From Candidatus Hermodarchaeota archaeon (GTDB lineage: Archaea; Asgardarchaeota; Hermodarchaeia; Hermodarchaeales; Hermodarchaeaceae), in NCBI GenBank assembly GCA_016839365.1, contig JAEOUH010000044.1:18567-82566 (forward strand): a DNA stretch of 64,000 nt, read 5' to 3'. The position numbers and the translations under genes are program-made. Shown here piece after piece: positions 12,044 through 58,622 of this stretch. The first letter of the stretch is position 1. The number at the start of each line of letters is the position of its first letter. The notes beneath the pieces are model-generated. The model did no database searches. It was not told the origin of the DNA and saw nothing but the letters and a program-made list of their open reading frames with translations.

Positions 12044-12610
12044 TCATTCTTCTATGACCAGTGCAACTAATTCTGAGGTATAATCTCTAGCTCGCTGCAT
12101 GGAAGCTTGGAAAGGGTCAGCCACCCCGTATCGTTTAGTAAGTTTCGCAAACCGATCATCTACTTTGGACAACCACTTCTCTGGGTATTCAATTCCATCC
12201 CATTCAAATGCACCTAATTTATCTGCGACGCACACAATCTTTTCTTCCCAAGACTGAGGGAGAAAATCACGTTTTGGAAGCCCAAGGGATTCTGCTTCAA
12301 GTGCTCGAAATCCTCCCAGAACGTGTCTTTCTACGATTAACACAATGCTGTTCGGATATCCATGTTCAATCAAAATTTGCCCTCCAATGCAGCCATGAGT
12401 AACATCGTGAACATGCGCACGACCGATATCATGAAGCAGTGCACCTAGTTCGAGCAACTGATGATTAACAGGGATTTTCGAAGTAACTTGGCTAGCAATC
12501 CGAAGAGCCTTGTGTCGAGTGGCCTGACAGTGTTTCAATACCTGAGAATCGGTGACTAGTCTATCCAAAAGATTCTGGGCGTCCTCCAGAGAGGGTAAAC
12601 TGATCGACAT
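12044..12610 (-). CDS. HD-domain phosphohydrolase
   Basis: 188 aa. LLHDIGR and HD-type His/Asp pairs are present. Confidence 0.6.
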   Translation of the reverse strand: MSISLPSLEDAQNLLDRLVTDSQVLKHCQATRHKALRIASQVTSKIPVNHQLLELGALLHDIGRAHVHDVTHGCIGGQILIEHGYPNSIVLIVERHVLGGFRALEAESLGLPKRDFLPQSWEEKIVCVADKLGAFEWDGIEYPEKWLSKVDDRFAKLTKRYGVADPFQASMQRARDYTSELVALVIEE

Positions 12611-13885: not shown

Positions 13886-15415
13886 ATGAACGCTGAACCG
13901 CTTGGAACAATTGTGTGTACTGAAGACGGGCCGTCAACAGAACAAATCTCATTTGTGGTAGGCAATCGTAATGCTTCAACCACCACGGTGGGACAGATTC
14001 CTGTTCATGTAGGACAGTATGTGTCTGTTGAAACCGAAGAAGGATTGGTTATGGCTCACGTCGAACAAGTGTACAAAACCAATCGATACTTCTCCCAAGT
14101 TGATGCTGTGCATGAGTTTACAAGATCGGGTAAACCATTTGGAGCAATTTTCCCCATTGATCGGTGGGAATACATCCTAGCCAAAGCAAAACCTCTAGGA
14201 ATTTTCGAACAGGATCGGATTCAACGAATTACCTATCCACCCTCGCCGGGGGCTATTGTTTCTTCACCTGATCCTAACATACTCTCCCAATTCCTAGGAT
14301 TCTCGAAAGATGGAATTCACCTTGGACATCTATTGTTCCATCGTATCCCGGCAACTTTTGATTTGACTAAGATGTTTCAAAAACATGTGGCGTTATTGGC
14401 GATGAGTGGTGCAGGAAAGAGTTACGCGGCATCGGTTATGATAGAGGAGCTTTTGGCACGTAAGACAGCTCAGGGACGACCCGCCATTCTCATCATTGAT
14501 GTTCATGGTGAATACGGGGGATTAGCTGAAGCCCAGGAGATCAAAGGAGCAAAGGTTGCAGATCAGTTATCCGTTATTCGAAGTCCTCTTGTTGAGATAG
14601 CGACACCGTATATGAACGCAAAATCCTTTGCAGCCTATTCTCCCGACATGGGAACCATCCAAGTTCGAGAACTTTCAAGGATTATTCGGACATTGCGGAG
14701 TGTGCGCAAAGGTCAGCCTTATGATCTGGGGGATTTGATTACAGCCCTGGAAAAGGATCCATCAATTAATACTAGAACACGAGAAGCGCTCCTTGGATGG
14801 CTCGACAACCTCCAAAGTTACAACCTGTTTGGTAAGACATCAACGCCAGAATGGCAGAAGCTAATGAAACCGGGTCATGGAGTCATTCTGGATATGAGTG
14901 AAACAGTAAGCCTCCAAAAGAAACAGATTATTGTTGATGCTGTTCTTCGCCATCTATTCAACTTAAGGCGTGATGGAACAATTCCCCCCACAGTAGTGTT
15001 CCTCGAGGAAAGTCACCAATTCTGCCCCGAAGCACGCCGAGCTTTAGCCTTTTCTAAGGGAATCGTTGAAACCATAGCGCGAGAGGGGCGGAAATATAAT
15101 CTTTCTTTGTGCATTATTTCCCAACGGCCTGTTCGACTCTCAACCACAGTCCTTTCACAGTGCGGAACCAATATTTTTCTTCGAATTTCTAATCCCTATG
15201 ATCTCGACCATATCCGTGCCACATCAGAAAAAATCACAAAGGCAACCCTCACATCGATATCGAGCCTCAGCGTGGGAGAAGCCCTCGTGGTTGGTCAAGC
15301 AACCCGTTTTCCAGTATTCATACAGGTGCGTAAAAGAACAACAAAAGAGACGGCGTTTCACGAGGACTTCGAAACTGTGGCAAAGAAATTTGAAAAGAAA
15401 GAAAAGGCAAAATAG
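13886..15415 (+). CDS. herA: HerA double-strand-break repair helicase
   Basis: 509 aa. An N-terminal HAS-barrel region is followed by Walker A (LAMSGAGKSYAA), Walker B (VILDMSE) and a FtsK/HerA-type ATPase core. Confidence 0.85.
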   Translation: MNAEPLGTIVCTEDGPSTEQISFVVGNRNASTTTVGQIPVHVGQYVSVETEEGLVMAHVEQVYKTNRYFSQVDAVHEFTRSGKPFGAIFPIDRWEYILAKAKPLGIFEQDRIQRITYPPSPGAIVSSPDPNILSQFLGFSKDGIHLGHLLFHRIPATFDLTKMFQKHVALLAMSGAGKSYAASVMIEELLARKTAQGRPAILIIDVHGEYGGLAEAQEIKGAKVADQLSVIRSPLVEIATPYMNAKSFAAYSPDMGTIQVRELSRIIRTLRSVRKGQPYDLGDLITALEKDPSINTRTREALLGWLDNLQSYNLFGKTSTPEWQKLMKPGHGVILDMSETVSLQKKQIIVDAVLRHLFNLRRDGTIPPTVVFLEESHQFCPEARRALAFSKGIVETIAREGRKYNLSLCIISQRPVRLSTTVLSQCGTNIFLRISNPYDLDHIRATSEKITKATLTSISSLSVGEALVVGQATRFPVFIQVRKRTTKETAFHEDFETVAKKFEKKEKAK

Positions 15416-15418
15416 GAG

Positions 15419-15564
15419 TGGTGGGCACGGCGGGATTCAAACCCGCGACCTCCGGCTAACCTAGGCTTCGCAAACGAATGTTCGGAGCGACTCCATATAA
15501 GGCATACACACCCCATGCAAAGTGCACGGCGGTTCGGCGCTCCATCAGGCTAAGCCACGTGCCC
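15419..15564 (-). tRNA. tRNA gene with about 69 nt of intervening sequence. Introns are probably multiple or non-canonical. The anticodon is unresolved. CCA is encoded.
   Basis: The reverse complement gives acceptor GGGCACG/CGTGCCC, D-arm GCTT-AGCCTGATG-GAGC, T-arm GCGGG-TTTGAAT-CCCGC and 3' ACCA. An 86-nt middle region contains only 17 nt of mature anticodon arm. Confidence 0.6.
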
Positions 15565-15611
15565 TTGTGAAATCTGTGATGTTTTTCCGTAGCTTAAATG
15601 TGTTGGCACAC

Positions 15612-18503
15612 CTACTTCTTTTTCGCCAAGAAGGCAAAGCTGATTTTTTCCTTAGCGAATTTGAGTTTATCTTTGGCGGTCCATTCAAGAGCGGGAAGTT
15701 CTTCACTGATATTCAGCTGAGAAGCCCCAACCTTCGTTGAGATAGCATCCGCTGTATCCTTAATTGCTTGCCTCAGATCATTTGAAGTTGTTGCCACAAA
15801 CAATTCGATACGTTGTGTAACATGAAGACCTGCTTTTTTGCGAGTTGCTTGAATTTGTCTAATTACATCTCGAGAAAGACGTTCCGCACGGAGTTCAGGG
15901 GTTTCTGAAATGTCGAGGTATACTGTAGCAAAGGGGAGCTCCATCTCTTTCAAATCGCCACCCTTAGCTTGCTTAAGGATTTGAACAGTTTTTACATTTG
16001 TTTGGCTGGCAACCACGTTGCTGAAGTGGTCCAGTTGGAATTCTTTCGTTGAAGGGACAATTACTAGGCGTTGACAGGGCCATCGAAGTTTGAGTCCCAC
16101 TTGTTGCCGAATATGCTGTACTGTATCAACAATTTCAGACACCCACTCCATTTCTTGACTCAATTCAGAATCAATCAGATTCAACTCTGGAGATGGCCAA
16201 GATAGCATGTGGACACTAATGGGGGCATCTGTTTCAACAGACCGGACCAAGGCTTGATACATTTTTTCTGTTAGGAATGGGAGGACAGGGGCTAGAACTG
16301 CTAGAAGAGTCCGCAATACTTGATATAGGGTGTTGAAAGCCGCAGTTTTCGTTTCGTCCTGAGAACTCACCCAGGTTCGAGAACGAACGAGTTTGATATA
16401 CCATCGACTGAGATCCCTTACTACGAAGTCTTCCATTAACCGAGGGACATACGGTAATTCGTATTCATCTAGTCGCTCAGTGACTTGTTTGATAAGCAGG
16501 TGCAACTGAGAAAGAATCCAACGATCCTCATCCTGAAGCTGACTCAGTTTAAATTCATGTAATTTTGGATCGTAATTTGCGGCTTTCATGAACGTTGTGG
16601 CAAAAACGTAGACATTCCACAGTATCGAAATGCTGCGTCGGGTATCCTCAACATCCTTCCAGATGAAGCGCATATCTTCGCCGGGTCCAGTACTTTTGAT
16701 ACTATAAATTCGGAGCGTGTCTGCCCCAACTTTCTCAACAATTTCTTCGGGAAGTACACCCACGCCCTTTGATTTAGACATGGGTCGACCTTGTTCGTCA
16801 GTGGTGAATCCGTGCATATACACGTTCCTATAAGGTTCCCTGTCTGCCACCAACATGGTCGAGTTGAAGAGTGTATTGAACCAATTGCTAATCTGATCTT
16901 TTCCTTCGATGACAAACTCGGCAGTTTCCCAATTATCAAAGTCCATGGTCCCGAAGGTTGCCCATCGTGTTGCCCAGGGTGCTACTCCACTGTCTAACCA
17001 TACATCGAGAACATCATCTACCCGAGACATAGTACCATTACATTTAGTGCAACCCCATGTGGCTTCGTCGACCCATGGGCGATGAAGATTCTCTAGTTTC
17101 TTACCACTTTTTTCGGTTAATTCGTCTGCACTGCCAATCACTTCTATATGGTTGCACTTGTCACAGTTCCAGATGGGTAGAGGGGCACCCCAGTATCGTT
17201 GGCGGGAGATACACCAGTCACGGAGATTTTGTACCCAGTTTCGGAACCATGTGTGACCTGCCCAGTCGGGAATCCATCGGATATCCTCATTTCTCTTGAT
17301 GATTTCGTGTCGAAGATCGCTAACTCGGAGGAACCATTGATCTGTGGCTAGATAGATTAGGGGGTTACCACATCGCCAGCAGTGGGCGTATTCGTGCTCA
17401 ATGGTATCTTGATGGATGAGTAAGCCCTTCTTTCGCAAATCCATGAGAATTACTTCACTGGCATTTTGAACCTTCATTCGAGCATATTTTCCACCCTCTT
17501 CAGAAAATGTGCCAGAAAGTGTAACTGGGCAAAATATGGGGATTCCTTCCCGCTCCCCTACTTCAAAATCTTGTGGACCATGCCCAGGGGCCATGTGAAC
17601 GAGGCCGGTTCCTTGTTCAAGTGTTACATATTCTTCACTCGGCACTATCGAATGAACTTTTGTGGATTCTTGGTGGAATTTCGCTTGACGAGGAACCTCA
17701 TCCACTAGAGGATGTTCATACCGGAGACCGACAAGATCTGAACCTTTTACTTCTTCAATAACCGTGTACGGCTTGTCTAAGAGTCCTTGGAGAATAATAT
17801 TCGCAAGTCCCTTTGCGAGTATCCATACTTCCTTGTCAACTTGAACTCGGACATATTGGAATTCAGGATGCACCATCACCGCCATATTGGCAGGTAACGT
17901 CCAAGGTGTTGTAGTCCAAATGACGATAAACTCGTGTAATCGATCAATGACTGGAAACTTGACCCAAATTGAATAGTCTTCAATTGTGCGGTACTCGTGT
18001 TCACGTTTTGCGATGGCTGTTTCACACCGAACACAACAATCAATCGAACGGAGCCCCCGGTACAAGAATCCGCGGTCATGGGCTTTTTTCATCAGATACC
18101 ACGTGCCTTCAATGTAGGGATTATCTAATGTTCGGTAGGGGCGATTCCAATCCATCCAGACACCTAACCGCTTAAATTGCTCTGTCATAGTATCTAAATT
18201 CGAGAGAGCAAATTCTTGGCATCTTTGAGTGAATTTGTCTACCCCGATTGTTTTTTCAATATCCAGTTTCGATTTGATGCCTAGTTCTTTCTCAACACGC
18301 ACTTCAATGGGTAATCCATGCATGTCAAACCCTGGAGTATCGATCACACGGAACCCTCGCATCCGCTGATACCGCAGAACCAGATCCTTCATTATCTTGT
18401 TCCAAGCAGTTCCAAGATGAATAGCACCGGTCGTATAGGGGGGGCCATCCAGGAATTGGAATACTGGGCGATCCTTAAGCATCTCCTTGACTAGGTCATA
18501 CAC
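15612..18503 (-). CDS. ileS: Isoleucyl-tRNA synthetase
   Basis: 963 aa. HIGH-type motif PPYTTGAIHLG. KMSKS motif is MSKSKG. Zinc-binding cysteines are present. GTG start codon. Confidence 0.9.
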   Translation of the reverse strand: MYDLVKEMLKDRPVFQFLDGPPYTTGAIHLGTAWNKIMKDLVLRYQRMRGFRVIDTPGFDMHGLPIEVRVEKELGIKSKLDIEKTIGVDKFTQRCQEFALSNLDTMTEQFKRLGVWMDWNRPYRTLDNPYIEGTWYLMKKAHDRGFLYRGLRSIDCCVRCETAIAKREHEYRTIEDYSIWVKFPVIDRLHEFIVIWTTTPWTLPANMAVMVHPEFQYVRVQVDKEVWILAKGLANIILQGLLDKPYTVIEEVKGSDLVGLRYEHPLVDEVPRQAKFHQESTKVHSIVPSEEYVTLEQGTGLVHMAPGHGPQDFEVGEREGIPIFCPVTLSGTFSEEGGKYARMKVQNASEVILMDLRKKGLLIHQDTIEHEYAHCWRCGNPLIYLATDQWFLRVSDLRHEIIKRNEDIRWIPDWAGHTWFRNWVQNLRDWCISRQRYWGAPLPIWNCDKCNHIEVIGSADELTEKSGKKLENLHRPWVDEATWGCTKCNGTMSRVDDVLDVWLDSGVAPWATRWATFGTMDFDNWETAEFVIEGKDQISNWFNTLFNSTMLVADREPYRNVYMHGFTTDEQGRPMSKSKGVGVLPEEIVEKVGADTLRIYSIKSTGPGEDMRFIWKDVEDTRRSISILWNVYVFATTFMKAANYDPKLHEFKLSQLQDEDRWILSQLHLLIKQVTERLDEYELPYVPRLMEDFVVRDLSRWYIKLVRSRTWVSSQDETKTAAFNTLYQVLRTLLAVLAPVLPFLTEKMYQALVRSVETDAPISVHMLSWPSPELNLIDSELSQEMEWVSEIVDTVQHIRQQVGLKLRWPCQRLVIVPSTKEFQLDHFSNVVASQTNVKTVQILKQAKGGDLKEMELPFATVYLDISETPELRAERLSRDVIRQIQATRKKAGLHVTQRIELFVATTSNDLRQAIKDTADAISTKVGASQLNISEELPALEWTAKDKLKFAKEKISFAFLAKKK

Positions 18504-19023
18504 TTGGTGTTTCTACCAAAACTCCAGTATCTCCTGTTCTAATGAGAGAAAATCAAATTTCTTTGGAAGCTCTGAAACTGGCATTTATGTTGTTGCTCCA
18601 TTAATTCCTAGCGTGACCCTACCATTCTTCAACCGAATAAAAAGTCTTGGGCAATAATAATGAACTAGTCAATTCAACTGATTGAATGAGGGGTCGAAAT
18701 GGGAAACTTCATTCTAGATTGAAAATTAAGTGAATTATTCTTCGATGAAGCTGTTAAGCCGATTCTCGCTAAGCATTATCCTTTACTCGACTATTCTGCC
18801 GGTTTGTAGCCCAGGCTCAGAAGTATTAGGTTTCGACACTTTGATGTCAAAAGATCATGTAACTGTATGTTACGGATTGTAAAATTAGAAACATTATATC
18901 AATGACACTTCATCCTCTAACAAATATTCAATAAAAAACAGTCGAGACTAAAATTGAACGAAAGCTCTATATGGCTACAAACGTAAGTCAGACAAACCGA
19001 GCCCTCGCTAGGAGCAAGGCTAC

Positions 19024-31663: not shown

Positions 31664-33088
31664 ATGTCCATTCCTAATACTATATGGCTTAAGTGTCTGA
31701 AAGAAATTCGCCCAACCGAGTCTGATATTCAAGAATCATCCTTTGTTTTTGAAAAGGTACGCAAGGCTATTGAATTAGAAGCAGAAGATCGGAAAATCAC
31801 TGTTGCGTTTATTAATTTAGAAGGCTCGTCTGGTCGAAAACAGACACAGCTTCGTGGTTGGAAAGAGCTGGACATATTCGTCGGATTACCCGTGTCAATC
31901 TTATCGCACTCACTTGAAGACAAGAAAACTAGAAAACCCGTGATTCGTCGTTTGCTTAAAAAAATGGTGAAGGATATAGCTGTTAATGCTGCAAGAAGTG
32001 CGGGATCCAAAGAAGTCGAAATTGCTTATGCGGAGCATCCCTATGTGATAGCTCAAATTGATAATTATAAGGTTGATATCGTTTTTTGCTTCGATTTAAC
32101 CAAAGACTATATTATCAACAATGGTCCAATCACCGCCGTCGATCGGACGCCGCACCATTCCAATTTTGTGGATAAGCACCTTACCGTAGCCCAACGTGAT
32201 GATGTCCGTCTTCTCAAAGCCTTCTTTCACACAGCATATGTCTACGGGGATTCGAGTCCAGTTGGTCGGAGTGGATTTACGGGATTTAGTACTGAGATGC
32301 TAATCTTTCACACAAAAGCACTAGAACCAGCATTGGAATATTTGTCTCAATCAACACCACAACCACGCGATTTCTTCAATCGTGATGCCGATTCCTTGAA
32401 ACGAAAATTCCCTAACGATTTTTTCATCATCTCAGACCCAGTGGATCCGAACCGCAACATTGCCTCTAGTATTTCACAACGTGCCTACCGTTACACTAGC
32501 CACAAGTCACGCCAACTGTTACAGGACCCCTCTGAAGTATTCTTTGACAGGAGACCCATTCCCCAATTATCTGCGACGGAACTTGACTTGTTGGGCCCAA
32601 ACTACTTTGTCATCGAGTTCCATGATCAAACTGGGTGGCATTACACCAAAACCCGTGATAAACTCTATCGTTATTTCTCAAAGCTTGCACGTTTCCTCAA
32701 ACAGGAACCAACAGGAGAATCACGATTCGGATTCGTAGCCTTTGAAGAGCTTTTTCAAGGTGATATTTTCGCAGTTGCGCTTTACGTAGAAAGGGCGAAA
32801 GTGAGTCAATCGTATAGAAGAGCAGGACCTCAACAGAGCCATGTTGAAGGCGTTCACCAGTTCATAGAGAAACATCCTGAAGCCTTTTTGAAAAATGGTC
32901 GATATTATACTAAGATCCGAAGAACGTTCACATCGGCAGAAGCGACGCTTCGTTACTATTTATCAGAAAATCAACTCTCTTCGAAATTGCCAGTTATTGA
33001 AGTGTCTAGAACTGGCTCAACACAGATAGGAGCACAGGCATTATGGATTCTAACGAAAGCAGTATTGCCATTTATGACATTAACTTAA
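31664..33088 (+). CDS. cca: Archaeal class I CCA-adding enzyme (tRNA nucleotidyltransferase)
   Basis: 474 aa. NTase motif GSSGRKQTQLRGWKELDIFVGLP. Further matches: AEHPYV, AVDRTPHH and VRLLKAFF. Confidence 0.8.
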   Translation: MSIPNTIWLKCLKEIRPTESDIQESSFVFEKVRKAIELEAEDRKITVAFINLEGSSGRKQTQLRGWKELDIFVGLPVSILSHSLEDKKTRKPVIRRLLKKMVKDIAVNAARSAGSKEVEIAYAEHPYVIAQIDNYKVDIVFCFDLTKDYIINNGPITAVDRTPHHSNFVDKHLTVAQRDDVRLLKAFFHTAYVYGDSSPVGRSGFTGFSTEMLIFHTKALEPALEYLSQSTPQPRDFFNRDADSLKRKFPNDFFIISDPVDPNRNIASSISQRAYRYTSHKSRQLLQDPSEVFFDRRPIPQLSATELDLLGPNYFVIEFHDQTGWHYTKTRDKLYRYFSKLARFLKQEPTGESRFGFVAFEELFQGDIFAVALYVERAKVSQSYRRAGPQQSHVEGVHQFIEKHPEAFLKNGRYYTKIRRTFTSAEATLRYYLSENQLSSKLPVIEVSRTGSTQIGAQALWILTKAVLPFMTLT

Positions 33089-53821: not shown

Positions 53822-53921
53822 TGGAGCCTCGGGCGGGGATTGAACCCGCGACCAGCAGCTTTCTCGACAACATTTAGGTGTCGTCTACGAGGCTGTCGCT
53901 CTACCACTGAGCTACCGAGGC
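53822..53921 (-). tRNA. tRNA-Thr (anticodon CGU) with a 25-nt intron at the canonical 37/38 position. CCA is encoded.
   Basis: The reverse complement gives GCCTCGG-TA-GCTC-AGTGGTA-GAGC-G-ACAGC-CTCGTA[intron 53861..53885]A-GCTGC-TGGTC-GCGGG-TTCAATC-CCCGC-CCGAGGC-T-CCA. The anticodon is at 53887..53889. Confidence 0.7.
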
Positions 53922-57665: not shown

Positions 57666-58622
57666 TTGGCTCTAAGTGAACCCTCGGTTGGTCTTGTGGT
57701 TTCTACTGATTTAGCGAAGATTTACCGTCGACAGCATTATCGTTTCATTGGTAGGAATAGTGTTTTGAAGAAATGTTATCATCTTCACAAGGCGTTGACC
57801 CAGCAACGACCCTGTTATAAACAGACCTTCTATGGTTCAATAATCACTCATCGGTGTATGCAGCTTTCTCCAACTTTACAATGTACACAATCATGTCAAT
57901 TCTGTTGGCGAACGATGCCAGGAGATGAAGGATTCCCGGGTCACCAGCAAAGGGAGATACCCGATGAGCCTTCGGAAATACTAGATAATGCGGTCATTGA
58001 GCAACGAAAAATCCTCGACGGGTACAATCCCGTGTGCCACCCCAGGGTAATCCCAAAGATGTATGAAGAGGCTCGGAATCCGCGACATGTAGCAATCAGC
58101 CTAGTTGGGGAACCAACAGGTTATGAACGTCTTTCCGAATTGATTGAAGAATGCCGACATCGTAACTGGACTAGTTATCTTGTTAGTAATGGCACCAACC
58201 CACAAGTGCTCGAACAGATTGAAGAACCAACCCAGTTATACATCTCGTTTGTGGCCCCTGATAAGAAAATTCACCAAGAACTTTGTCGGCCTTCGATACC
58301 CAATGCCTGGGAGCGGTTGCAAACGTCACTTAATCTCCTTTCATCGTTTTCTTGCCCAACCGTGATTCGAATGACTCTCGTTGCAGATCGAAACATGCAC
58401 TGCATATCAAAGTATGCAGCAACACTCAATTCAGCTCAGCCCGATTATATTGAATGCAAAGCCTACATGCACGTCGGTTCATCAATGCAACGACTTTCAC
58501 GGGAGAATATGCCAAGTATGAATGAAATTCGAGACTTTGCTGCAAAATTAGCTAATGACACTGATTACGTGGTTATGAACGAGGACACAGTTAGTCGTGT
58601 AGTTCTCCTCGGGAGAGAATGA
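57666..58622 (+). CDS. taw1: tRNA 4-demethylwyosine synthase (TYW1/Taw1) radical SAM enzyme
   Basis: THRCMQLSPTLQCTQSCQFCWR carries the CxxxCxxC cluster. ISLVGEP. The overall order parallels archaeal Taw1. Confidence 0.8.
   Translation: MALSEPSVGLVVSTDLAKIYRRQHYRFIGRNSVLKKCYHLHKALTQQRPCYKQTFYGSIITHRCMQLSPTLQCTQSCQFCWRTMPGDEGFPGHQQREIPDEPSEILDNAVIEQRKILDGYNPVCHPRVIPKMYEEARNPRHVAISLVGEPTGYERLSELIEECRHRNWTSYLVSNGTNPQVLEQIEEPTQLYISFVAPDKKIHQELCRPSIPNAWERLQTSLNLLSSFSCPTVIRMTLVADRNMHCISKYAATLNSAQPDYIECKAYMHVGSSMQRLSRENMPSMNEIRDFAAKLANDTDYVVMNEDTVSRVVLLGRE

What the first reader, a model, noticed from the sequence alone, without database searches (positions are those of the whole stretch)
15419..15564. 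146-nt tRNA gene with about 69 nt of intervening sequence and no simple anticodon arm
The acceptor stem (GGGCACG/CGTGCCC), D-arm, T-arm and encoded CCA are unambiguous. The 86 nt between position 26 and the variable loop cannot be reduced to a 17-nt anticodon arm by removing one intron at 37/38. The 3' half of the anticodon stem (GCCGG) needs a 5' partner CCGGC, but only CCG is present before the insert. This implies an intron inside the anticodon stem (about 29/30), probably a second intron, or a permuted arrangement. A repeated CCGAAC element occurs at two junction-like positions. The tRNA identity is unknown. It sits immediately upstream of ileS.
Basis: seen in the sequence. Interest (0 to 1): 0.6.

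Follow-up and report, generated by a model that had tools for sequence, protein, structure and literature searches.

The report
Two-intron tRNA-Ile(UAU) gene beside ileS
This is a working gene for the rare isoleucine tRNA that reads the AUA codon, broken by two removable inserts, in an Asgard archaeon; split tRNA genes are known, but this anticodon is rare in archaea and resembles the way eukaryotes read AUA.

Summary
Window 15419-15564 (minus strand) is a 146-nt tRNA gene that ARAGORN and the Rfam tRNA model both miss. It has two bulge-helix-bulge (BHB) introns: 31 nt between tRNA positions 29/30 and 38 nt at the canonical 37/38 site (69 nt in total). Removing them gives a perfect 77-nt cloverleaf with encoded CCA and anticodon UAU, that is tRNA-Ile(UAU). 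The first exon junction (CCG|GC) is shown directly by an ortholog (L019) that lacks that intron. I collected 29 orthologous loci (Hermod/Thor-type, Atabeyarchaeia-type and Odinarchaeia Asgard genomes, plus one metagenome contig). In them the exons are nearly invariant, intron helices change by compensatory substitutions, and intron positions turn over (D-loop, 29/30, variable region, T-loop). The gene lies 47 nt downstream of the ileS stop codon on the same strand, not upstream, and this linkage is conserved in 28 of the 29 loci. Multi-intron tRNAs are already known in Thermoproteales and in Atabey/Freyarchaeia, so the gene architecture is a new member of a known kind. Less expected are the UAU anticodon and a hexamer in the 37/38 intron that is complementary to the D-arm 3' strand and co-varies with it across Asgard classes.

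The parts
15419..15564 (-). Whole tRNA-Ile(UAU) gene: 146 nt, 3 exons, 2 introns, encoded CCA
   Evidence: orthologs
15535..15564 (-). Exon 1: tRNA positions 1-29 (acceptor 5' strand, D arm, G26, C27 C28 G29). The D loop AGCCUGAUG has G18 A19.
   Evidence: invariant in 12 of 12 aligned orthologs except one acceptor position
15504..15534 (-). Intron 1: 31 nt between positions 29/30, with a relaxed BHB. Central helix GCGC (15537-15540) / GUGU (15506-15509). Bulges CG|A and AU|G. Inner helix of 3 bp plus a 6-7 bp hairpin.
   Evidence: junction shown by L019, which lacks this intron; BHB table; 6 of 9 inner-helix pairs change on both sides; the BHB is part of the MFE fold
15496..15503 (-). Exon 2: GCCUUAUA = positions 30-37. 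The anticodon UAU is at 15497-15499.
   Evidence: invariant in all 30 genes examined
15458..15495 (-). Intron 2: 38 nt at the canonical 37/38 site, with an hBHBh' motif. Central helix CUUA (15498-15501) / UAGG (15460-15463). Bulges UA|U and UU|A. Inner helices GG/CC and UCGC/GCGA.
   Evidence: UCGC/GCGA becomes CCGC/GCGG in L019; 31 of 38 columns are invariant, against 11 of 31 in intron 1
15419..15457 (-). Exon 3: positions 38-76 (A38, anticodon-stem 3' strand GCCGG, variable loop AGGUC, T arm with T loop UUUGAAU (U56), acceptor 3' strand, A73, CCA)
   Evidence: the 22-mer from this exon found 16 species genomes
15484..15489 (-). Intron-2 hexamer CGCUCC (intron nt 7-12). It is the exact complement of tRNA positions 21-26 (GGAGCG, 15538-15543).
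   Evidence: same offset in every lineage; co-varies with the exon (AGAGCG/CGCUCU in Odin, AAAGCG/CGCUUU in L026)
15592..15606 (-). Conserved box CCAACACATTTAAGC, 28-42 nt upstream of tRNA position 1. Likely BRE/TATA promoter of the tRNA (inferred).
   Evidence: conserved in nearly all orthologs while the flanking spacer varies
15392..15418 (-). T-rich tract after the CCA (CTCCTATTTTGCCTTTTCTTTCTTTTC). Likely transcription stop (inferred). It overlaps the last 24 bases (15392-15415) of the convergent herA gene.
15612..18584 (-). ileS (isoleucyl-tRNA synthetase, 990 codons), directly upstream on the same strand. The stop codon lies 47 nt before the tRNA.

Best explanation
This is a functional gene for tRNA-Ile with anticodon UAU, the decoder of the AUA codon, in a Hermodarchaeia/Thorarchaeia-type Asgard archaeon. 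It is interrupted by two protein-spliced (bulge-helix-bulge) introns.

Shown here:
- The gene has three exons (30 + 8 + 39 nt).
- They join into a canonical 77-nt cloverleaf with anticodon arm CCGGC-CUUAUAA-GCCGG, A73 and an encoded CCA.
- Each splice site lies after the second base of a 3-nt bulge, and the two bulges of each intron flank a 4-bp helix.
- The 37/38 intron has a full hBHBh' motif whose outer helix is the anticodon stem.
- The 29/30 intron has a relaxed motif. Its central helix borrows positions 24-27, so it forms at the expense of the D stem and of pair 27:43.

Inferred:
- The gene is transcribed from its own BRE/TATA-like promoter just after the ileS stop codon.
- Both introns are cut by the broad-specificity (alpha-beta)2 splicing endonuclease that Asgard archaea are reported to carry, and the exons are joined by an RtcB-type ligase.
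- The product is charged by the IleRS encoded next door and reads AUA, which is 16% of Ile codons in this window.
- It most likely replaces the usual archaeal tRNA-Ile2(CAU) plus agmatidine (TiaS) system.
For: 1. Spliced product. ARAGORN calls the spliced product tRNA-Ile(tat) with all stems perfect. With intron 1 removed it calls Ile(tat) plus a 38-nt intron.

2. Junction. Ortholog L019 has no insert at 29/30 and reads GCGCCGGCCUUAUA. L025 and the Odin loci L034 and L037 also read CCGGCCUUAUA without this intron.

3. Conservation. In 12 gap-free orthologs 76 of 77 exon columns are invariant, 31 of 38 in intron 2 and 11 of 31 in intron 1.

4. Covariation.
- The intron-1 inner helix has 6 of 9 pairs with changes on both sides. 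99.4% of cells are paired, and 0 of 500 shuffles reach the score.
- The pair next to the bulge changes A:U to G:C in L007 and L014.
- The intron-2 helix UCGC/GCGA becomes CCGC/GCGG in L019.

5. BHB geometry holds in all 20 unique orthologs of the clade; the 29/30 motif holds in the 19 that carry that intron. The unconstrained MFE fold contains the intron-1 BHB.

6. Tertiary covariation. This clade and L024 have A19 with U56. L030 and L025 have G19 with C56, and L026 has C56 (its D loop was not parsed).

7. Synteny. ileS lies directly upstream on the same strand in 16 of 16 loci found through the tRNA exon alone, and also in the Atabey-type and Odin loci.

8. Need for a decoder. AUA is used 173 times in 36 ORFs of the window.

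9. Literature.
- Asgard EndA is (alpha-beta)2 with the L1 loop that confers relaxed-BHB cleavage (PMC5829648).
- Multi-intron tRNAs are common in Atabey/Freyarchaeia (PMC11291895).
- In the complete Atabeyarchaeia-2 genome tRNAscan lists Ile-TAT, Met-CAT and iMet-CAT but no Ile2-CAT. Freyarchaeia has Ile2-CAT and no Ile-TAT.
Against: - There is no expression or splicing data for this gene, so the mature tRNA has not been observed.
- The Rfam tRNA model and default ARAGORN do not call the unspliced gene.
- tRNAscan-SE flagged the Atabeyarchaeia counterpart 'possible pseudo'.
- The intron-1 central helix is weak (two G:U pairs, about -1.8 kcal/mol as a duplex). It has almost no outer helix and competes with the D stem. 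It is invariant in the sample, so it has no covariation support apart from one G:U to G:C change in L014.
- The elbow has A19-U56 instead of the near-universal G19-C56.
- I could not test whether this lineage lacks TiaS and tRNA-Ile2(CAU).
Confidence: 0.9

Rival explanations
1. It is a tRNA-Met or tRNA-Ile2 with anticodon CAU, a single 49-nt intron and a long variable arm. This is the model ARAGORN returns when run with introns allowed on the unspliced gene.
For: ARAGORN -i on the 146-nt sequence gives tRNA-Met(cat), 97 bases, with a 49-nt intron.
Against::
- The base that would be C34 lies in the variable part of intron 1, so the 'anticodon' would be CAU, AAU or UAU depending on the ortholog.
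- The proposed 3' strand of the anticodon stem is broken in 9 of 19 orthologs.
- L019 lacks the 5' half of that arm altogether.
- The model has no BHB at its junctions and needs a class-II-type variable arm that tRNA-Met and tRNA-Ile do not have.
Confidence: 0.01
2. It is a decayed tRNA pseudogene whose inserts are not excised, as the first reader offered for refutation and as tRNAscan-SE labels the Atabeyarchaeia counterpart.
For: Standard tRNA finders fail on it. The 'possible pseudo' flag appears in PMC11291895 Supplementary Data 4. The elbow pair is unusual (A19-U56) and the 29/30 BHB is weak.
Against: - Exons are almost invariant across genomes whose IleRS is only 50-83% identical, while the intron interiors diverge.
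- There are compensatory changes in intron helices and in the 19:56 tertiary pair.
- The promoter box and the synteny are conserved.
- Introns are gained and lost at four or more positions while the mature sequence is kept.
Confidence: 0.03
3. A different two-intron parse gives another identity, for example tRNA-Pro(GGG) (exon 2 = GCAUGGGG) or tRNA-Arg(GCG) (exon 2 in the UUUGCGAA segment, with a 10-nt second intron).
For: Both parses pass the formal filter of a 5-bp stem, U33 and a purine at 37.
Against: - The Pro parse takes its anticodon from the intron-1 hairpin, which is not conserved (CGCGUGGAG, GCGCGAAG and others in orthologs).
- The Arg parse needs a 10-nt intron without a BHB, and its 5' stem bases vary (GUUU, GAUU, AAAU, AACU).
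- Neither parse is compatible with L019, and neither has BHB motifs.
Confidence: 0.01
4. Besides, or instead of, acting in translation, it is a tRNA-like element in the ileS transcript. For example it could be a 3' mimic that IleRS binds for feedback control, which would explain the conserved linkage.
For: It lies 47 nt after the ileS stop on the same strand, and the linkage is conserved across three Asgard classes.
Against: - A conserved promoter-like box lies between ileS and the tRNA.
- The gene encodes a complete, canonical tRNA with CCA.
- The relative L030 has no ileS within its 7.8-kb locus.
- A regulatory role would be additional to, not a replacement for, the decoding role.
Confidence: 0.04

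Closest known systems
Multi-intron tRNA genes of Thermoproteales (e.g. Pyrobaculum islandicum tRNA-Pro(UGG) with introns at 25/26, 37/38 and 56/57) and of Atabeyarchaeia/Freyarchaeia
   Same: There are several BHB-type introns in one tRNA gene, one canonical and one or more non-canonical. The non-canonical sites have relaxed HBh'/hBH-type motifs that form at the expense of the cloverleaf. The host has an (alpha-beta)2 endonuclease. Intron positions turn over quickly between relatives (PMC4090602, PMC11291895, PMC5829648).
   Different: The lineage is different (Hermod/Thor-type Asgard). The isoacceptor is different and rare (Ile-UAU). The gene is linked to its cognate synthetase gene. The canonical intron is unusually conserved in sequence.
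Archaeal tRNA-Ile(UAU) of Nanoarchaeum equitans, Korarchaeum cryptofilum and ARMAN-2/-4/-5
   Same: A UAU anticodon is used for AUA in place of the CAU + agmatidine system. The Korarchaeum and ARMAN-2 genes also carry a 37/38 intron (25 nt in ARMAN-2). The ARMAN genomes lack tRNA-Ile(CAU) and TiaS (PMC3239211, PMC6000648).
   Different: Those genes have a single canonical intron, and no ileS linkage is reported for them. Here there is a second intron at 29/30. Absence of TiaS and tRNA-Ile(CAU) in this lineage was not tested.
Eukaryotic nuclear tRNA-Ile(UAU), including the three-intron gene of Cyanidioschyzon merolae
   Same: It has the same anticodon and the same job (AUA only), and it carries a 37/38 intron. 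In yeast Psi34 and Psi36 are made by Pus1 only on the intron-containing precursor. [quoted passage not shown]
   Different: No homology between the introns has been shown. No Asgard Pus1-like activity or anticodon modification is known for this tRNA. The resemblance is of architecture and role only.
Atabeyarchaeia-2 'Ile TAT, possible pseudo' entry (PMC11291895, Supplementary Data 4)
   Same: It is probably the same gene family. L025 and L026 (Atabey-type, IleRS 54% identical) carry the identical anticodon arm downstream of ileS.
   Different: It was listed only in a table, scored 52.4 bits and was flagged as a possible pseudogene. Its intron set is different (D loop, 37/38, variable region).

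Membership tests
tRNA (canonical class I cloverleaf) | 7-bp acceptor stem, 4-bp D stem, 5-bp anticodon stem with a 7-nt loop (U33, purine 37), 5-nt variable loop, 5-bp T stem with a 7-nt loop, discriminator base plus CCA | tested here: met
   ARAGORN on the spliced 77-nt sequence gives tRNA-Ile(tat) with all stems paired. The unspliced gene is not called. The unspliced ortholog L024 scores 40.8 bits on Rfam RF00005.
tRNA (canonical class I cloverleaf) | Conserved tertiary elbow pair G19-C56 and T loop U54-U55-C56 | tested here: not met
   The window has A19 and U56 (D loop AGCCUGAUG, T loop UUUGAAU). The pair is kept as a Watson-Crick A-U and co-varies: relatives L030 and L025 have G19/C56. 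This is a variant, not a loss.
Archaeal BHB (bulge-helix-bulge) tRNA intron | Two 3-nt bulges separated by a 4-bp helix, with cleavage after the second bulge base on each strand | tested here: met
   Intron 2: CUUA/UAGG with bulges UA|U and UU|A. Intron 1: GCGC/GUGU with bulges CG|A and AU|G. Both hold in every ortholog that has the intron.
Archaeal BHB (bulge-helix-bulge) tRNA intron | Flanking helices h and h' on both sides (strict hBHBh') | tested here: inconclusive
   Intron 2 is strict: the outer helix is the anticodon stem and the inner helix is GG/CC plus UCGC/GCGA. Intron 1 has a strong, covarying inner helix but only a 2-bp outer helix (G22:C64, G23:C63 in gene positions, as in the MFE fold) with an extra bulged A. 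It is therefore a relaxed HBh'-type motif.
Archaeal BHB (bulge-helix-bulge) tRNA intron | Actual excision by the splicing endonuclease and ligation | not testable with these tools
   No RNA data are available. The literature reports a broad-specificity (alpha-beta)2 EndA in Asgard archaea (PMC5829648). No EndA or RtcB gene lies in this window.
tRNA-Ile(UAU), the AUA decoder | Anticodon U34 A35 U36 in a standard loop with A37 and A38 | tested here: met
   The loop is C32 U33 U34 A35 U36 A37 A38 after splicing. GCCUUAUA is invariant in all 30 genes.
tRNA-Ile(UAU), the AUA decoder | Charged with isoleucine by IleRS, and U34 restricted so that AUG is not read | not testable with these tools
   Indirect support only: A73, A37 and A38 are present, and the gene is linked to ileS.
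UAU-only AUA decoding system (no TiaS, no tRNA-Ile2(CAU)) | Absence of the agmatidine synthase TiaS and of a C34 tRNA-Ile2 from the genome | not tested
   Only 64 kb of this genome was available and I had no TiaS query sequence. The indirect hint is the Atabeyarchaeia-2 tRNA list, which has Ile-TAT and no Ile2-CAT.
Permuted or split tRNA gene | The 3' half is encoded upstream of the 5' half, or the halves lie at separate loci | tested here: not met
   The exons are collinear in the order 5'-1-2-3-3' within 146 nt.

The most novel reading that the evidence does not exclude
The 37/38 intron of Asgard tRNA-Ile(UAU) may be an old, functionally constrained element rather than a passive insert. Its nt 7-13 pair with tRNA positions 20-26 (the D-stem 3' strand plus G26), and this helix is kept by compensatory changes in Hermod/Thor-type, Atabey-type and Odin lineages. 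The helix could hold the precursor in an open form. That form could set the order of splicing, or allow an intron-dependent modification of U34/U36 that makes a UAU anticodon safe for AUA-only reading. If so, a subset of Asgard archaea would already read AUA in the eukaryotic way: a UAU tRNA with an obligatory intron, linked to ileS, in place of agmatidine.
Probability: 0.15. Interest if true: 0.8.

Novelty: new member of a known kind. Interest (0 to 1): 0.5.

Why it matters
Practical value:
- Standard tRNA finders miss this gene or label it a pseudogene.
- Genome annotations of these Asgard lineages therefore appear to lack an AUA decoder, and completeness estimates or codon-capacity inferences based on them are wrong.
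- The exon/intron map and the ortholog set given here fix that for a whole clade.

Biological value:
- Nearly all archaea read AUA with an agmatidine-modified CAU tRNA.
- A UAU tRNA was known only from Nanoarchaeum, Korarchaeum and ARMAN.
- Finding it conserved, beside ileS, across several Asgard classes makes the origin of the eukaryotic UAU system a testable question.
- The co-varying intron/D-arm complementarity is a concrete lead on what a tRNA intron may do in the precursor.

Tried and rejected
1. Single-intron models. Enumeration found none with a 5-bp stem, U33 and a purine at 37.

2. A strict BHB scan ranked by flank length gave only spurious top hits involving the acceptor or T arm. 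The true motifs have short flanks and emerged only after the exon borders were fixed by comparison.

3. The ARAGORN -i model (Met-CAU, 49-nt intron) was rejected on ortholog evidence.

4. The Pro(GGG) and Arg(GCG) two-intron parses were rejected because their 'exon 2' lies in non-conserved intron sequence.

5. A permissive Rfam scan of 15300-15700 gave only fragmentary T-arm hits under other family names.

6. A hairpin inside the intron-2 loop (CGA/UCG or GAAC/GUUU) has no covariation and several disruptive changes.

7. GGAG/CUCC pairing at the start of intron 2 is not conserved: most orthologs have GGUG.

8. The metagenome scan for versions with no 37/38 intron, or one of 30 nt or less, returned six high-GC, CCA-less, unrelated (probably bacterial) tRNA-Ile(tat) genes. 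It returned only one true relative, L030, which has shorter introns at the same two sites. No Asgard-type gene lacking the 37/38 intron was found.

9. Annotation of 30 of the larger window ORFs found no EndA, RtcB or TiaS.

Full report
**1. What is in the sequence**

On the minus strand, window 15564 to 15419 reads GGGCACG UG GCUU AGCCUGAUG GAGC G CCG ... GCCGG AGGUC GCGGG UUUGAAU CCCGC CGUGCCC A CCA. It is 146 nt long. The acceptor stem, D arm, T arm, discriminator A73 and an encoded CCA are all there.

86 nt lie where a 17-nt anticodon arm should be. ARAGORN in default mode finds no tRNA in the whole window. The Rfam tRNA model finds only a tRNA-Thr(CGU) with a 27-nt intron at 53825-53921. 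A permissive Rfam scan of the local region sees only the T arm.

**2. Exon/intron structure**

I enumerated all deletions of one or two segments that leave a 17-nt arm with five stem pairs, U33 and a purine at 37. No single-intron solution exists. Nineteen two-intron solutions do, with anticodons GGG, UAU, GCG or AUG. Comparative data select among them.

The organism is an Asgard archaeon of the Hermod/Thor type:
- Its IleRS is 77-83% identical to proteins named Thorarchaeota or Promethearchaeota.
- The neighbouring genes encode a Ras-family GTPase, NurA/HerA and NucS.

I obtained loci around IleRS orthologs. A scan of one genome per species with the 3'-exon 22-mer added 16 more. That made 22 loci with a full-length ortholog (20 distinct gene sequences, counting the window's own), and later look-ups and a metagenome scan added seven more distant ones, 29 loci in all.

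All of these genes contain the invariant segment GCCUUAUA. One of them, L019, has no insert after CCG and reads GGAGCG-CCGGC-CUUAUA contiguously. This proves the junction CCG|GC and excludes the other parses.

The gene is therefore:
- exon 1 (15535-15564, positions 1-29)
- intron 1 (15504-15534, 31 nt, between positions 29/30)
- exon 2 (15496-15503, positions 30-37)
- intron 2 (15458-15495, 38 nt, between positions 37/38)
- exon 3 (15419-15457)

The spliced 77-mer is called tRNA-Ile(tat) by ARAGORN with every stem perfect. The form lacking only intron 1 is called Ile(tat) with a 38-nt intron.

**3. Splicing motifs**

According to the review PMC4090602, a BHB is a 4-bp helix flanked by two 3-nt bulges. 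In a canonical intron the first two anticodon bases lie in that helix. Relaxed hBH/HBh' forms occur at non-canonical sites.

Intron 2 fits the strict form:
- Positions 32-35 (CUUA) pair with UAGG near the intron's 3' end.
- The bulges are U36 A37|U and UU|A38.
- The outer helix is the anticodon stem.
- The inner helices are GG/CC and UCGC/GCGA.

Intron 1 fits a relaxed form:
- The central helix is G24 C25 G26 C27 paired with GUGU.
- The bulges are C28 G29|A and AU|G30.
- The inner helix is 3 bp and continues, after one bulged base, into a 6-7 bp hairpin.

Both motifs are present in every ortholog that has the intron.

Counts on a gap-free alignment of 12 orthologs:
- 99.4% of pair cells form standard pairs.
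- 6 of 9 pairs of the intron-1 inner helix change on both sides.
- No shuffle out of 500 reaches the observed covariation score.
- Slid controls pair at most 50% of cells.

More distant orthologs add further compensatory changes. The first inner pair changes A:U to G:C (L007, L014). UCGC/GCGA becomes CCGC/GCGG (L019). The central-helix G:U becomes G:C (L014).

The intron-1 central helix itself is invariant and weak. It competes with the D stem and with pair 27:43. The unconstrained MFE fold nevertheless contains this BHB. The cloverleaf-plus-BHB2 conformer and the BHB1-plus-BHB2 conformer are within 2 kcal/mol of each other.

Asgard archaea are reported to have the (alpha-beta)2 endonuclease with the L1 loop, which allows cleavage of relaxed motifs (PMC5829648). 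The excision step is inferred from this, not shown.

**4. Rivals**

With introns allowed, ARAGORN proposes tRNA-Met(cat) with a 49-nt intron and a long variable arm. In the orthologs that model's anticodon would drift among CAU, AAU and UAU. Its stem is broken in 9 of 19, and L019 lacks half of it.

The pseudogene reading is contradicted by four observations:
- The exons are nearly invariant (76 of 77 columns) across genomes whose IleRS has diverged to 50-83% identity.
- Intron helices covary.
- The 19:56 tertiary pair covaries. It is A19/U56 in this clade and in L024, and G19/C56 in L030 and L025.
- A promoter-like box CCAACACATTTAAGC is conserved 28-42 nt upstream.

The permuted-gene reading fails because the exons are collinear.

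**5. Context**

The gene lies 47 nt after the ileS stop codon on the same strand and 3 nt from the stop of the convergent herA.

ileS is directly upstream in 16 of 16 loci that were found through the tRNA exon alone.

The linkage, with the identical arm CCGGC-CUUAUA|intron|A-GCCGG, also holds in:
- two Atabeyarchaeia-type loci whose IleRS is 54% identical (L025, L026)
- Odinarchaeum yellowstonii (L034)
- a second Odin-type genome (L037)

It does not hold in a Helarchaeota locus or in L036.

Intron positions differ between lineages: D loop, 29/30, 28/29-like, variable region and T loop. Only the 37/38 intron is present in all of them.

AUA accounts for 16% of Ile codons in the window, so a decoder is needed.

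**6. Comparison with what is known**

Multi-intron tRNAs are well documented in Thermoproteales (PMC4090602). In Atabey/Freyarchaeia 92-95% of tRNA genes have introns and more than half have several (PMC11291895). The architecture is therefore a new member of a known kind.

tRNA-Ile(UAU) is rare in archaea:
- It was found in 2 of 167 genomes, Korarchaeum and Nanoarchaeum (PMC6000648; no Asgard genomes were sampled).
- The ARMAN lineages also have it and lack TiaS and tRNA-Ile(CAU) (PMC3239211).

I found no paper in the library that connects Asgard archaea with TiaS, agmatidine or Ile-UAU.

The only trace is one line in Supplementary Data 4 of PMC11291895. Atabeyarchaeia-2 has 'Ile TAT, 2 introns, 52.4 bits, possible pseudo'. 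The same list has Met-CAT and iMet-CAT but no Ile2-CAT. Freyarchaeia has Ile2-CAT and no Ile-TAT. This suggests two alternative AUA-decoding set-ups within Asgard. I could not test TiaS or tRNA-Ile2 in the present lineage.

Eukaryotes read AUA with tRNA-Ile(UAU). In yeast, Psi34 and Psi36 of this tRNA are made by Pus1 only on the intron-containing precursor. The C. merolae gene has D-, anticodon- and T-arm introns (PMC9602550), the same three regions as L019. This is a resemblance of role and layout. Homology has not been shown.

**7. An unexplained feature**

Intron 2 is far more conserved than intron 1: 31 of 38 invariant columns against 11 of 31. Part of the reason is a hexamer at intron nt 7-12, CGCUCC (15484-15489). 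It is the exact complement of tRNA positions 21-26, GGAGCG (15538-15543).

The hexamer sits at the same offset in every lineage and tracks the exon:

| Lineage | Exon 21-26 | Intron nt 7-12 |
|---|---|---|
| Hermod/Thor clade, L024, L030 | GGAGCG | CGCUCC |
| L025 | GGAGCG | CGCUUC (one G:U) |
| L017 | GGAGCG | CGCUCU (one G:U) |
| Both Odin loci | AGAGCG | CGCUCU |
| L026 | AAAGCG | CGCUUU |

A seventh pair (position 20 with intron nt 13) shows U:G, U:A, A:U and C:G.

Formal counts on the 7-bp helix:
- 98.9% of cells are paired.
- 3 of 7 pairs change on both sides.
- 1-3 of 500 shuffles reach the observed values.
- Slid controls pair at most 48% of cells.

Meanwhile the intron's internal helix differs from lineage to lineage. 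The window's tRNA-Thr intron has no such complement. As a duplex the helix is much stronger than the D stem (-9.5 against -2.2 kcal/mol).

There are caveats. Only four or five independent lineages are sampled. The helix was derived from these same sequences. It is mutually exclusive with the D stem, with the intron-internal helix and with the intron-1 BHB.

Its function is unknown. A role in ordering the splicing steps or in an intron-dependent modification is speculation.

**8. Verdict**

The gene is a functional two-intron tRNA-Ile(UAU). As a gene architecture it is ordinary for this part of the archaeal tree.

Interest comes from three things: the rare anticodon, the conserved ileS linkage across Asgard classes, and the co-varying intron/D-arm complementarity. 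None of these appears to have been described, and the second and third rest on modest sampling.

Noticed in passing
window 18513-18515 (minus strand), inside ileS: ileS has an in-frame TAG at codon 24 where the 99%-identical protein P0001 has Gln (CAG), a single C-to-T difference. This is why the ORF list starts ileS at a GTG at 18503 (963 aa instead of 990 aa). It could be an assembly or consensus error, a nonsense allele or, less likely, recoding.
   Followed up: partly
window 15484-15489 and 15538-15543; L017, L025, L026, L030, L034, L037: The hexamer at nt 7-12 of the 37/38 intron is complementary to tRNA positions 21-26 and co-varies with them across Asgard classes. It is absent from the window's tRNA-Thr intron. 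Its function is unknown.
   Followed up: partly
window 15545-15546 (G18 A19) and 15439 (U56); compare L030, L025, L026: The elbow tertiary pair is A19-U56 instead of G19-C56 in this clade and in L024. Relatives L030 and L025 have G19/C56 and L026 has C56. The Odin genes have a T loop UCCGAAU, with C at position 55.
   Followed up: partly
L007/L015, L008, L014, L019 (T loop); L019, L025, L026, L034, L037 (D loop); L025, L026, L034, L037 (variable region or 3' anticodon stem): Orthologs of the same tRNA carry extra inserts of about 15-55 nt at other positions: a T-loop insert after GCGGGUUUGAA, a D-loop insert after AGCCUGG or GGCUUAG, and one near the variable loop. This gives three introns in several genes and possibly four in L026. 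I did not check the BHB motifs of these inserts.
   Followed up: no
window 53825-53921 (minus strand): A second intron-containing tRNA, tRNA-Thr(CGU), has a 27-nt (Rfam count) canonical intron and an encoded CCA. Rfam finds it at 57.4 bits, but ARAGORN in default mode does not.
   Followed up: partly
window 15592-15606 (minus strand): The box CCAACACATTTAAGC between the ileS stop and the tRNA is conserved in nearly all orthologs while the surrounding spacer varies. It is probably the tRNA's BRE/TATA promoter.
   Followed up: partly
L027, L028, L029, L031, L032, L033 (metagenome contigs, 56-67% GC): These are intron-less tRNA-Ile(tat) genes without an encoded CCA. They share the exact anticodon arm and T-stem start (GCCUUAUAAGCCGGAGGUCGCGGGUU) with the Asgard gene but have unrelated acceptor stems. 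They are probably bacterial UAU-type tRNA-Ile genes.
   Followed up: no
window 57666-58622 (+), 31664-33088 (+), 12044-12610 (-): Other tRNA-related genes lie in the window: TYW1 (4-demethylwyosine synthase; 358 bits, above cutoff), a CCA-adding-enzyme-like protein (below cutoff), and an HD-domain protein that resembles the HD part of a fused Trm56-type protein.
   Followed up: no
L026 1253-2590 (minus strand): An OrfB_IS605/Cas12f-like TnpB gene lies just upstream of ileS in the Atabeyarchaeum-type locus, and an Elp3-like radical-SAM gene lies beyond it.
   Followed up: no
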